The notes under the pieces: generated by a model | Told to the model about the DNA's origin: nothing | Databases searched by the model: none | Seen by the model: the letters and a program-made list of their open reading frames with translations, nothing else | Position numbers and translations under genes: made by a program | Part shown: positions 24,619 to 26,049 of the stretch, one piece after another | How positions within the stretch are numbered: the first letter of the stretch is position 1 | Layout: the number at the start of each line of letters is the position of its first letter | Assembly: GCF_009914755.1 (NCBI RefSeq) | Contig: NC_060931.1 | Source: the human T2T-CHM13v2.0 reference genome, Homo sapiens | DNA length: 64,000 bases | Strand: one strand, 5' to 3'

Positions 24619-25700
24619 AGGAACAAATCTTTTTTTTTTTTTTTTTATAAATGAAGAAAGTTCATTTATCCTAGTGATACTGTATTACTCTGCCTGCTTA
24701 TTCTGCAAAATTAGCAGAGATTAATTTACATTCTCAAAAAAGACGGGTGAGGGGAAATGGAAATGCTTCATGGAAAAGAAGGCAAATTTAGGTCATAGGT
24801 AGAGATCTCAATCAAATGGGCCAAAATACAGTTTATTTATATCTGCTAACTCCCAACTGCTAGCATCTGACCACAGCATAACAAGCTTGGAATCGGGGAA
24901 CCTGGGCTGTAGTCCAGTTTCTGCCCCTTATAGCACCATGACCTTGGAAAAGGTATTTGACCTCTCTGAGTTTCATTATCCTTACCACTGAATAAGGATC
25001 ATCTGCTAAACTCACAAGGCTGGGGAAAGGGTGAAGGGTGGTGTCTTCATGGAAACAATATGTGTAGATGTCCTTTTTGGACTCCAGAAGCCATAAATGA
25101 TGCAACCTTATTTATTAACCATTAATGTGAACAGGGCCAACCATTTCTATGTTATTAACACTGCTTCTTCCCTAATGATTCAATTCAGATAAACCTTACA
25201 AAGCACTTCACACCAAGAGCTGAGTATCAGGGCCACTTGGTTCTTACAGACGCAGTGCCTCCAAGCCAAAATTGGTAGAACCAATAGTTCTACTCTTAAA
25301 GCAGGACCTCTCTAGCCTCCCATTATCTAGATGAAAATGAGCTTACTAATTTAGAAACACAAGTGAGTATATTCTAGGCTAACCAAAGTAATTCTTCTCT
25401 AATTATTGAGAACATTAAATGTCACGAGCTGATCTCAAAATATTAGTAAAATAAGTTAAATTGTTTTGAAAGGAAGGAAATGTGATAATGTAGAAATGGG
25501 GAAAAAACAAGACAGAATTGAAATATTATATTAATCAAGTACTAACCCTGGTTTGAATGGGTAAATGCAGAAGACCTTTCTTCCTTCTTTTTTTATTTAT
25601 TTATCTTTTTTTTCAAAATTATACTTTAAGTTCTAGGGTACATGTGCACAACGTGCAAGTTTGTTACATATGTATACATGTGCCATGAGGAACAAATCTT
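24619..25700 (-). mobile_element. 5'-truncated L1PA (L1PA4/5-like) with 3' transduction, flanked by TSD aggaacaaatctt
   Basis: TSD at 24619-24631 and 25688-25700; L1 3' end 25618-25687; A-rich L1 tail 25588-25613; ~940 bp non-L1 segment; distal poly(A) read as a T run at 24630-24646. Confidence 0.8.
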
Positions 25701-25844
25701 AATGGGGTTTAAAAATCTTTTCTTGGCCAGGTGTGGCGGCTCATGCCTGTAATCCCAGCACTTTGGGAGGCTGAGGTGGGTGGATCACCTGAGGTTGGGA
25801 GTTCTAACCAGCCTGACCAACATGGAGAAACCCCATCTCTACTA

Positions 25845-26003
<159 letters not shown>

Positions 26004-26049
26004 TCAAAAAAAAAAAAAAATCTTTTCTTGGAGTCCCAGTTTGTATGAC

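What the first reader, a model, noticed from the sequence alone, without database searches (positions are those of the whole stretch)
24619..25700. L1-mediated 3' transduction: ~940 bp of DNA apparently from another locus inserted 160 nt after CRCP exon 4
Seen: the 13-mer aggaacaaatctt occurs at 24619-24631 and again at 25688-25700. Read on the minus strand, the DNA between them is a ~70-bp L1 3' terminus (catggcacatgtatacatatgtaacaaacttgcacgttgtgcacatgtaccctagaacttaaagtataa), a degenerate A-rich tail (25588-25613), ~940 bp of non-L1 sequence including a MIR piece (24647-25587), and a second clean poly(A) (T run 24630-24646). A variant signal GATAAA (tttatc, 24665-24670) lies ~18 nt before that second tail. 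The target site reads TT/AAGA, close to the L1 endonuclease TT/AAAA consensus. Established: TSD + L1 stub + two A tails is the signature of 3' transduction. Inference: the apparently unique intronic segment is a copy of the flank of a source L1PA4/5-age element elsewhere. Repeat annotation would mark only the stub.
Basis: partly seen in the sequence, partly recalled or inferred. Interest (0 to 1): 0.8.

Follow-up and report, generated by a model that had tools for sequence, protein, structure and literature searches.

The report
L1 insertion carrying chromosome 3 DNA
A roughly 1-kb piece of CRCP intron 4 is an old LINE-1-made insertion whose bulk was copied from chromosome 3, an ordinary kind of event, except that no LINE-1 sits beside the chromosome 3 original in this genome.

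Summary
An exact 13-mer (24619-24631, 25688-25700) brackets, on the minus strand, a 70-nt L1 3' terminus, a 30-nt impure A-rich tract, about 940 nt of non-L1 DNA and a pure 15-17 nt poly(A). The target site reads TT|AAGA.

The assembly holds one other copy of the 940 nt, at chr3:24,726,033-24,726,988 (92% identity, full length). That copy has no poly(A) and unique flanks, so it is the parent.

No L1 abuts the parent. No L1 with this 3' end and tail lies within 220 kb upstream. A pattern scan of the whole assembly found none either.

Best reading (about 0.7): a partnered L1 3' transduction, roughly 17-37 Myr old, from a source L1 allele that was never fixed.

Rivals:
- Spliced capture of a chr3 terminal exon. 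The parent's 5' boundary follows a strong acceptor-like ctccctttcag, and it is a poor L1 endonuclease site.
- Template switching between two RNAs.

This is a known kind of event with no sign of function, so interest is low. Primate orthologues and chr3 transcript data would decide; neither was available here.

The parts
24619..24631 (+). Target-site duplication, copy next to the poly(A) end of the insertion (AGGAACAAATCTT)
   Evidence: Exact 13-mer, only 2 copies in the window. Its last two T merge with the T run.
24632..24646 (-). Terminal poly(A) tail of the retrocopy (15 A, up to 17 counting the two bases shared with the duplication)
   Evidence: 0 non-A in 15. Absent from the chr3 parent, which continues GTTTAATGG.
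24647..25587 (-). Segment copied from chr3:24,726,033-24,726,988. Boundaries are uncertain by 1 nt at the 3' end and up to 4 nt at the 5' end, because chr3 AAAG overlaps the A tract.
   Evidence: 92% identity over 1-940 of 941. 944 aligned sites, 67 substitutions, 6 gap events, K2P 0.075. One 81-aa ORF at the 50-aa threshold (24860-25105, minus, TTG start). No Rfam match.
24665..24670 (-). GATAAA hexamer, a variant poly(A) signal, ending 18 nt upstream of the tail
   Evidence: The chr3 parent reads TAGAAA at the aligned position, so its state in the source RNA is unknown.
24919..24982 (.). Piece of an ancient dispersed repeat inside the copied segment (MIR-like core; name recalled, not tested against a library)
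   Evidence: chr17 match at 80% over 64 nt. One further chr3 match at 73% over 45 nt, with 0 hits for 10 shuffled queries.
25588..25617 (-). Internal impure A/T-rich tract between the L1 end and the chr3 segment (TTTG-A8-GATAAATAAATA7), read as the genomic tail of the source L1
   Evidence: With the T at 25618 it has 9 non-A in 31 nt. L1 copies L011 and L013 also carry TTT/TTTTT directly after AGTATAAT.
25618..25687 (-). 5'-truncated L1 (L1PA-type) 3' terminus, 70 nt, ending AAAGTATAAT
   Evidence: 40 of 40 scored genomic matches at 89-100% identity. 0-1 differences in 70 nt against 7 L1 3' ends, all of which continue upstream as ...ACCAA.
25688..25700 (+). Target-site duplication, copy next to the truncated L1 end

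Best explanation
Window 24632-25687 is a single L1-mediated (target-primed reverse transcription) insertion, antisense to CRCP in intron 4. It is most likely a partnered 3' transduction.

Proposed sequence of events:
1. A sense-strand L1PA-type element once sat immediately upstream of chr3:24,726,03x.
2. Its transcript ran through its own A-rich end and was polyadenylated about 950 nt downstream, after ...CATTTA.
3. L1 endonuclease nicked the CRCP intron at TCTT/AA.
4. Reverse transcription copied the poly(A), the chr3 flank and the source tail, then stopped 70 nt into the L1.
5. The source L1 allele was polymorphic and was later lost, so the chr3 locus now shows the empty site.

Shown: the anatomy, the chr3 parent, the direction of copying (chr3 to chr7) and the absence of a source L1 in this assembly.

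Inferred: that an L1 once abutted the chr3 site, that transcription began in that L1, and the age of roughly 17-37 Myr.

No function is indicated. The insertion is passive intronic DNA.
For: - Exact 13-nt duplication flanking the whole composite, and a target site with 5 of 6 matches to TT|AAAA, reached by 1.0-1.4% of positions.
- L1 3' terminus verified against genomic L1 copies.
- Exactly one other copy of the 940 nt in the assembly, on chr3. It is colinear over its full length, lacks poly(A), and has sharp homology edges at the internal A tract and at the tail.
- The chr3 flanks (997 nt upstream, 744 nt downstream) have no other full copy; the only further match is an 81-nt stretch on chrX at 77%. 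This excludes a segmental duplication and makes chr3 the parent.
- The internal A tract is impure (9 of 31 non-A) while the equally old terminal tail is pure (0 of 15), Fisher p = 0.021. That is expected if the internal tract was templated from a genomic L1 tail.
- K2P 0.075 between the copies lies within the pairwise K2P of 0.054-0.130 among four long L1 copies sharing the stub's 3' end.
- Literature passages read. PMC4859970 defines a 3' transduction by two A stretches plus the source 3' TSD, and lists an orphan transduction from a non-reference L1. Table 4 of PMC9311842 gives 51 of 268 present-day L1 transductions from non-reference sources. PMC13174262 invokes an ancestral L1 allele 'subsequently lost' for a comparable L1PA5-age case.
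Against: - No L1 abuts the chr3 parent.
- In 220 kb upstream, the only same-strand L1PA-like 3' end is 149 kb away and has a different tail.
- A genome-wide pattern scan for the stub-tail junction, with up to 3 mismatches in 38 nt, found only the window itself and one chr12 site with 3 mismatches (not inspected further; one search found no copy of the 940 nt on chr12).
- The chr3 boundary GC|AAAG matches TT|AAAA at only 3 of 6, which 27% of positions reach, so it gives no support for an L1 endonuclease site there.
- The same boundary lies 1 nt after ctccctttcag. Nine pyrimidines followed by AG occur only 0.45 times per kb on that strand, so the chance of one ending within 6 nt of the boundary is about 0.3%.
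- The tail-purity contrast loses significance if the leading TTTTG is left out (4 of 26 against 0 of 15, p = 0.28).
- The parent lacks the GATAAA hexamer.
- With only 70 nt of L1 left, initiation at the L1 promoter cannot be shown.
Confidence: 0.7

Rival explanations
1. Spliced read-through, or exon capture. An L1-containing transcript, either an L1 read-through or a host RNA with an L1-derived exon, was spliced from a donor at the end of the L1's A-rich tail into a chr3 terminal exon running from cag|CAAAGG (or caaag|G) to the poly(A) site. The spliced RNA was then retrotransposed. Under this reading the L1 never abutted the chr3 segment.
For: - The homology starts 1 nt after ctccctttcag. Y9-AG motifs occur at 0.39-0.45 per kb on chr3, about a 0.3% chance within 6 nt. 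A looser acceptor definition gives 1.4-1.7 per kb, about 1%.
- The copied piece has the layout of a terminal exon, acceptor to poly(A) site, about 950 nt.
- The chr3 boundary is a poor endonuclease site, 3 of 6.
- No L1 abuts the parent.
- Cis- and trans-splicing between L1 and other RNAs is discussed for 5' chimeras in PMC13174262 (passages read).
Against: - No matching upstream L1 in 220 kb or genome-wide at up to 3 mismatches, so a lost L1 is needed here too.
- It requires a splice donor exactly at the end of the A tract.
- With cag|C as the acceptor, the chr7 copy has 3 mismatches in the first 8 exon bases.
- The motif was noticed after the fact.
- No transcript data were available.
- By my recall, natural spliced L1 3' transductions are far rarer than unspliced ones.
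Confidence: 0.12
2. Template-switch chimera. Reverse transcription began on an independent polyadenylated chr3 RNA. At or near its 5' end the L1 reverse transcriptase jumped to the poly(A) tail of an L1 mRNA and copied 70 nt before stopping. No L1 was ever needed at chr3.
For: - The empty chr3 site is expected.
- Template switching and RNA ligation are accepted routes to L1 chimeras (PMC13174262, introduction and Figure 7 legend passages read).
Against: - The tract between the two parts is not a plain poly(A): 9 of 31 non-A against 0 of 15 in the terminal tail of the same age.
- It begins with a TTTT(G) that other genomic L1 copies also carry after AGTATAAT, so it looks DNA-templated.
- The described chimeras have L1 as the 3' part and the other RNA as the 5' part (PMC13174262 passages). 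This one has the opposite order.
- It needs an independent promoter and a transcript start just at the boundary.
Confidence: 0.05
3. Trans-mobilised, 5'-truncated retrocopy of a longer host (non-L1-promoted) chr3 transcript that happened to run through a now-lost L1. This would be a processed-pseudogene-type event rather than an L1 copying its own read-through RNA.
For: - Only 70 nt of L1 survive, so the promoter of the RNA is unknowable from this locus.
- The hallmarks (duplication, poly(A), endonuclease site) are the same for cis and trans events.
Against: - It still needs the lost L1.
- No other retrocopy carries chr3 upstream or downstream flank.
- By my recall, L1 proteins prefer their own RNA (cis preference), which favours an L1-initiated transcript.
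Confidence: 0.08

Closest known systems
Partnered L1 3' transduction (Moran 1999; Goodier 2000; Pickeral 2000, as cited in PMC4859970; 'partnered' as used in PMC7058536)
   Same: Target-site duplication around the whole composite, an L1 3' end, an internal A tract, unique downstream DNA from another chromosome, a terminal poly(A), and an L1 endonuclease-like target.
   Different: The parent locus in this assembly has no L1. Its boundary is a poor endonuclease site and follows an acceptor-like motif.
Transductions from non-reference or lost source L1s (the orphan transduction from a non-reference L1 listed in PMC4859970; non-reference progenitors in PMC9311842 Table 4; 'subsequently lost' ancestral L1 in PMC13174262)
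   Same: The offspring is identifiable by its transduced tag, while the source element is missing from the reference genome.
   Different: Those sources are young and still segregate in humans, or were detected by comparative alignments. Here the event is roughly 17-37 Myr old, and the lost allele is inferred, not observed.
L1 chimeric retrocopies made by template switching, RNA ligation or splicing (U6/L1 and mRNA/L1 chimeras; PMC13174262)
   Same: Two unrelated RNAs' sequences joined within one duplication-flanked insertion. The source L1 is absent from the partner gene locus in most of their mRNA cases (15 of 17, passage read).
   Different: In those chimeras L1 is the 3' partner. Here L1 is the 5' partner and is followed by its own A-rich tract, which is the transduction layout.

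Membership tests
L1-mediated (TPRT) insertion | Target-site duplication directly flanking the inserted block | tested here: met
   Exact 13-mer at 24619-24631 and 25688-25700. It abuts the T run on one side and the truncated L1 end on the other.
L1-mediated (TPRT) insertion | Poly(A) at the 3' end and an endonuclease-type target (TTTT/AA-like) | tested here: met
   15-17 pure A. TCTT/AA gives 5 of 6 matches, a level reached by 1.0-1.4% of positions.
L1 3' transduction | L1 3' terminus in sense orientation at the 5' side, followed by an internal A-rich tract | tested here: met
   70 nt with 0-1 differences to 7 genomic L1 3' ends, followed by a 30-31-nt A-rich tract.
L1 3' transduction | The non-L1 segment has a parent elsewhere that is colinear, lacks poly(A) and ends at the poly(A) addition site | tested here: met
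   chr3:24,726,033-24,726,988 at 92% over 1-940 of 941, with sharp edges and unique flanks.
L1 3' transduction | The parent segment lies immediately 3' of a same-strand L1 (the source element) | tested here: not met
   No L1 abuts the parent. No matching L1 3' end lies in 220 kb upstream, and none was found by the genome-wide pattern scan at up to 3 mismatches. Only one human assembly was examined, so a lost or non-reference allele remains possible. Membership therefore rests on the structural hallmarks and stays an inference.
L1 3' transduction | The start of the transduced DNA looks like the source element's 3' target-site duplication (endonuclease-type site at the parent boundary) | tested here: inconclusive
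   GC|AAAG gives 3 of 6 matches to TT|AAAA, which 27% of positions reach. NN|AAA occurs at 3.8% of positions.
L1 3' transduction | Downstream poly(A) signal 10-30 nt before the second tail | tested here: inconclusive
   GATAAA ends 18 nt before the tail in the chr7 copy, but the parent reads TAGAAA. AATGAA is present in both. The hexamer list is recalled.
L1 3' transduction | Empty pre-insertion site in species that diverged earlier | not testable with these tools
   No primate genomes are held. The genome search states that the assembly has no relatives here.
Spliced exon capture by L1 (exon shuffling) | The junction coincides with a splice acceptor of a real exon, and a donor follows the upstream part | tested here: inconclusive
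   An acceptor-like ctccctttcag ends 1 nt before the homology. No transcript annotation or upstream donor was available.

The most novel reading that the evidence does not exclude
The insertion records a natural case of L1-driven exon capture. An L1 read-through (or L1-exon-containing) RNA was spliced from a donor at the end of the L1's A-rich tail into a chr3 terminal exon (ctccctttcag|C ... poly(A) site) and was then retrotransposed into CRCP. This would explain why no L1 abuts the chr3 parent.
Probability: 0.12. Interest if true: 0.45.

Novelty: new member of a known kind. Interest (0 to 1): 0.2.

Why it matters
The direct importance is small. It shows that about 940 bp of apparently unique CRCP intron is really a retrocopy of chr3 DNA, which repeat masking would miss apart from the 70-nt L1 stub. 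That matters for paralogy-aware alignment and for dating.

The missing source L1 is a reminder that old transductions can outlive their sources. The acceptor-like parent boundary makes the locus a cheap test case for spliced against unspliced L1 transduction once primate alignments and chr3 transcript data are consulted.

No effect on CRCP is indicated. No RefSeq exon or functional element listed for the window overlaps 24619-25700.

Tried and rejected
- Segmental or DNA-level duplication: rejected. Only the roughly 945-nt piece is shared, the chr3 flanks are unique, and the chr7 copy has poly(A) plus a target-site duplication.
- chr7 as parent of chr3: rejected. chr3 lacks a tail, a duplication and an L1 stub.
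- Two independent insertions (L1 stub alone plus old intron DNA): rejected. The stub's own flanks carry no duplication, and the 13-mer pairs the stub's 5' end with the distal T run.
- The + strand L1PA-like end at chr3:24,577,272 as a spliced source: rejected. Its tail is different (AATAATAAAAAAACTGATAAC) and no donor sits at the tail end.
- Sibling offspring sharing the tag: none found. Elements sharing the stub-tail junction: none at up to 3 mismatches, apart from one chr12 site with 3 mismatches that I did not inspect; one search found no copy of the 940 nt there. With about 7% divergence and indel-prone A runs, a true relative could be missed.
- Coding or structured-RNA content: one 81-aa ORF (TTG start) at the 50-aa threshold. 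Rfam found only the neighbouring Alu.
- Subfamily dating from seven L1 ends: three of the seven loci (L007, L010, L013) gave inflated distances of 0.19-0.52, which I read, without checking, as short copies whose 1,400-nt window runs into flanking DNA. I dropped them. Only the 6 pairs among L008, L009, L011 and L012 were used.
- First tiled search for dispersed repeats in the segment: 0 dispersed hits in 7 tiles, but a tile boundary split the MIR-like core. The retile gave 1 hit.
- Literature for this locus: a search for CRCP + retrotransposon + transduction + intron listed 10 papers, none containing 'CRCP'. I found no printed description, but old genome-wide transduction catalogues were not searched.

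Full report
**Observation**

- AGGAACAAATCTT occurs at 24619-24631 and 25688-25700 and nowhere else in the window, even with one mismatch allowed. Shuffles gave a mean of 0.17 matches, and 1 of 100 reached two. The repeat finder returns the same pair (family D7).
- On the minus strand the block between the repeats reads, 5' to 3':
  - a 70-nt L1 3' terminus (25687->25618);
  - an impure A/T-rich tract, TTTG-A8-GATAAATAAATA7 (25617->25588);
  - about 940 nt of other DNA (25587->24647);
  - 15 pure A (24646->24632), plus two more bases shared with the repeat.
- GATAAA (24670->24665) ends 18 nt before the tail.
- The nicked strand reads TCTT/AA, which is TT|AAGA on the element strand, 5 of 6 matches to TT|AAAA. 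Only 1.0-1.4% of positions in 295 kb of background reach that level.
- A 13-nt exact match placed precisely at the two ends of an L1-stub-to-poly(A) block is not a chance feature.

**The L1 stub**

- A search of the window's own assembly with stub plus tract gave 362 candidates. All 40 that were scored matched at 89-100% identity.
- In the 7 loci fetched, the matching stretch is the 3' end of an L1 that continues upstream (...ACCAA|CATGGCAC...) and is followed by an A-rich tail.
- The stub differs at 0 of 70 positions from 5 of these copies and at 1 of 70 from the other 2.
- Most copies continue AGTATAATAATAAAA. L011 and L013 instead carry TTT or TTTTT after AGTATAAT, as the window does. Part of the 'degenerate tail' is therefore an inherited variant L1 end.

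**The 940-nt body has a parent on chromosome 3**

- The assembly contains exactly one other copy, chr3:24,726,033-24,726,988 on the + strand, at 92% identity over query 1-940 of 941. The only further match is a 64-nt, 80% hit on chr17 inside the MIR-like core.
- The pairwise alignment shows sharp edges. Homology begins at chr3 ...ctccctttcagc|AAAGGAGGGAAGAAAGG and ends at ...CTTCATTTA|gtttaatgg.
- Where chr7 has its poly(A), chr3 simply continues. Where chr7 has the A tract and L1 stub, chr3 has unrelated unique DNA.
- The 997 nt upstream and 744 nt downstream of the chr3 segment have no other full copy in the genome; the only other match is an 81-nt stretch on chrX at 77% identity.
- So chr3 is the parent, chr7 is a retrocopy, and a segmental duplication is excluded.
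- Over 944 aligned sites there are 67 substitutions (38 transitions, 29 transversions) and 6 gap events. K2P is 0.075, or 0.069 without 5 CpG-type changes.
- With assumed neutral rates of 1.0-2.2e-9 per site per year (my assumption, recalled), this gives about 17-37 Myr.
- Four long L1 copies that share the stub's 3' end differ pairwise by K2P 0.054-0.130 over 6 pairs. Three other loci were dropped because their distances were inflated (0.19-0.52), which I took, without checking, to mean short copies running into flanking DNA. The range brackets 0.075, so the stub and the body are of compatible age.

**What is missing**

It does not.

- The 1.5 kb upstream of the chr3 boundary is non-L1 DNA.
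- BLAST of seven L1 3' pieces and of the stub against 30 kb around the parent found only old L1 fragments at 68-78% identity, downstream of the parent or far upstream, plus two short 33-36-nt matches.
- In 220 kb upstream (chr3:24,506,033-24,726,032) there are four L1 3' ends and one 24-nt match to the A-rich tract alone. Only one of the L1 3' ends is on the + strand. It lies 149 kb away, matches at 91% over 82 nt, and has the tail AATAATAAAAAAACTGATAAC rather than the window's tract.
- A genome-wide pattern scan for the 38-nt stub-tract junction, with up to 3 mismatches, found only the window itself and one chr12 site with 3 mismatches, which I did not inspect further; one search found no copy of the 940 nt on chr12.

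**Mechanism**

The structure matches the published definition of a 3' transduction: two A stretches, with the source's 3' flank carried along (PMC4859970, passages read). Because an L1 part is retained, it is 'partnered' (PMC7058536, passages read).

The absent source is not unusual.
- PMC4859970 lists a pathogenic orphan transduction from a non-reference L1.
- In PMC9311842 Table 4 (passage read), 51 of 268 high-confidence L1 transductions come from non-reference sources.

I therefore read the locus as a read-through transcript of an L1 that sat at chr3:24,726,03x, was polymorphic when it fired, and never fixed.

One supporting detail is that the internal tract has 9 non-A in 31 nt, while the terminal tail of identical age has 0 in 15 (Fisher p = 0.021). 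That is expected if the internal tract was copied from genomic DNA and not added as a fresh poly(A). The support is weak: without the leading TTTTG the contrast is 4 of 26 against 0 of 15 (p = 0.28).

**Results against this reading**

- The chr3 boundary GC|AAAG matches the endonuclease consensus at only 3 of 6 positions, which 27% of positions reach.
- The same boundary lies one base after ctccctttcag, a strong splice-acceptor look-alike. Nine pyrimidines followed by AG occur 0.45 times per kb on that strand, so about a 0.3% chance within 6 nt. A looser definition gives about 1%.
- The copied piece therefore has the outline of a terminal exon, running from an acceptor to a poly(A) site.
- This keeps alive a spliced-capture rival (L1-driven exon shuffling in the sense of Moran 1999, cited in PMC4859970).
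- That rival has its own problems. It also needs a lost L1. It needs a donor exactly at the end of the A tract. With cag|C as the acceptor it implies 3 mismatches in the first 8 exon bases. The motif was also noticed after the fact.
- A template-switch chimera is a further rival. It is disfavoured by the impure, variant-L1-like tract and by the part order, which is the reverse of the described chimeras (PMC13174262 passages).
- With only 70 nt of L1 left, it cannot be told whether the RNA started at the L1 promoter or at a host promoter.

**Poly(A) signal**

- GATAAA is present in the chr7 copy, but the parent reads TAGAAA at the aligned position.
- Both copies share AATGAA (starting 20 nt from the end) and AATACA (40 nt).
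- The signal used is therefore uncertain. The hexamer list is recalled, not taken from a tool.

**Function and novelty**

- The segment has one 81-aa ORF at the 50-aa threshold and no Rfam match.
- It overlaps no exon or RefSeq functional element listed for the window, and it is antisense to CRCP.
- It is passive intronic DNA.
- The kind of event is textbook. This particular copy is probably unannotated beyond the stub.
- A search for CRCP with retrotransposon terms listed no paper containing CRCP. Older genome-wide catalogues were not checked.

**Verdict**

- That this is an L1-mediated composite retrocopy of chr3 DNA is close to certain.
- A classical 3' transduction from a lost source allele has a probability of about 0.7.
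- Interest is low (0.2).

Noticed in passing
window 25711-26031: An Alu (+ strand, about 25727-26015) sits 10 nt beyond the right-hand duplication of the L1 event. It has its own exact 16-nt target-site duplication, AAAAATCTTTTCTTGG, at 25711-25726 and 26016-26031 (family D4). Rfam's SRP model hits its left arm at 25726-25840, 63.4 bits, below the gathering score. Two independent retrotransposon insertions therefore lie within about 25 bp of each other.
   Followed up: partly
L002 1480-1500 (chr3:24,726,012-24,726,032): A strong splice-acceptor-like motif, tgctccctttcag, ends 1 nt before the start of the segment copied to chr7. Whether an annotated exon starts there could not be checked.
   Followed up: partly
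chr3:24,577,272 (in L024), + strand: The only same-strand L1PA-like 3' end in the 220 kb upstream of the parent. It matches the stub at 91% over 82 nt, and its tail AATAATAAAAAAACTGATAAC differs from the window's tract.
   Followed up: yes
L002 3789-3949 and L005 1422-1608, 8571-8928: Old L1 fragments, 68-75% identical to L1PA 3' regions, lie downstream of the chr3 parent. They are unrelated to the event.
   Followed up: no
L011 (chr5:55,830,603-55,830,696) and L013 (chr13:110,838,035-110,838,114): These L1 copies have TTT or TTTTT instead of AATAAA directly after AGTATAAT, as the window's stub does. L011's tail also carries (TAAA) repeats. They may be the same L1 3'-end variant lineage, or the resemblance may be convergent.
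   Followed up: no
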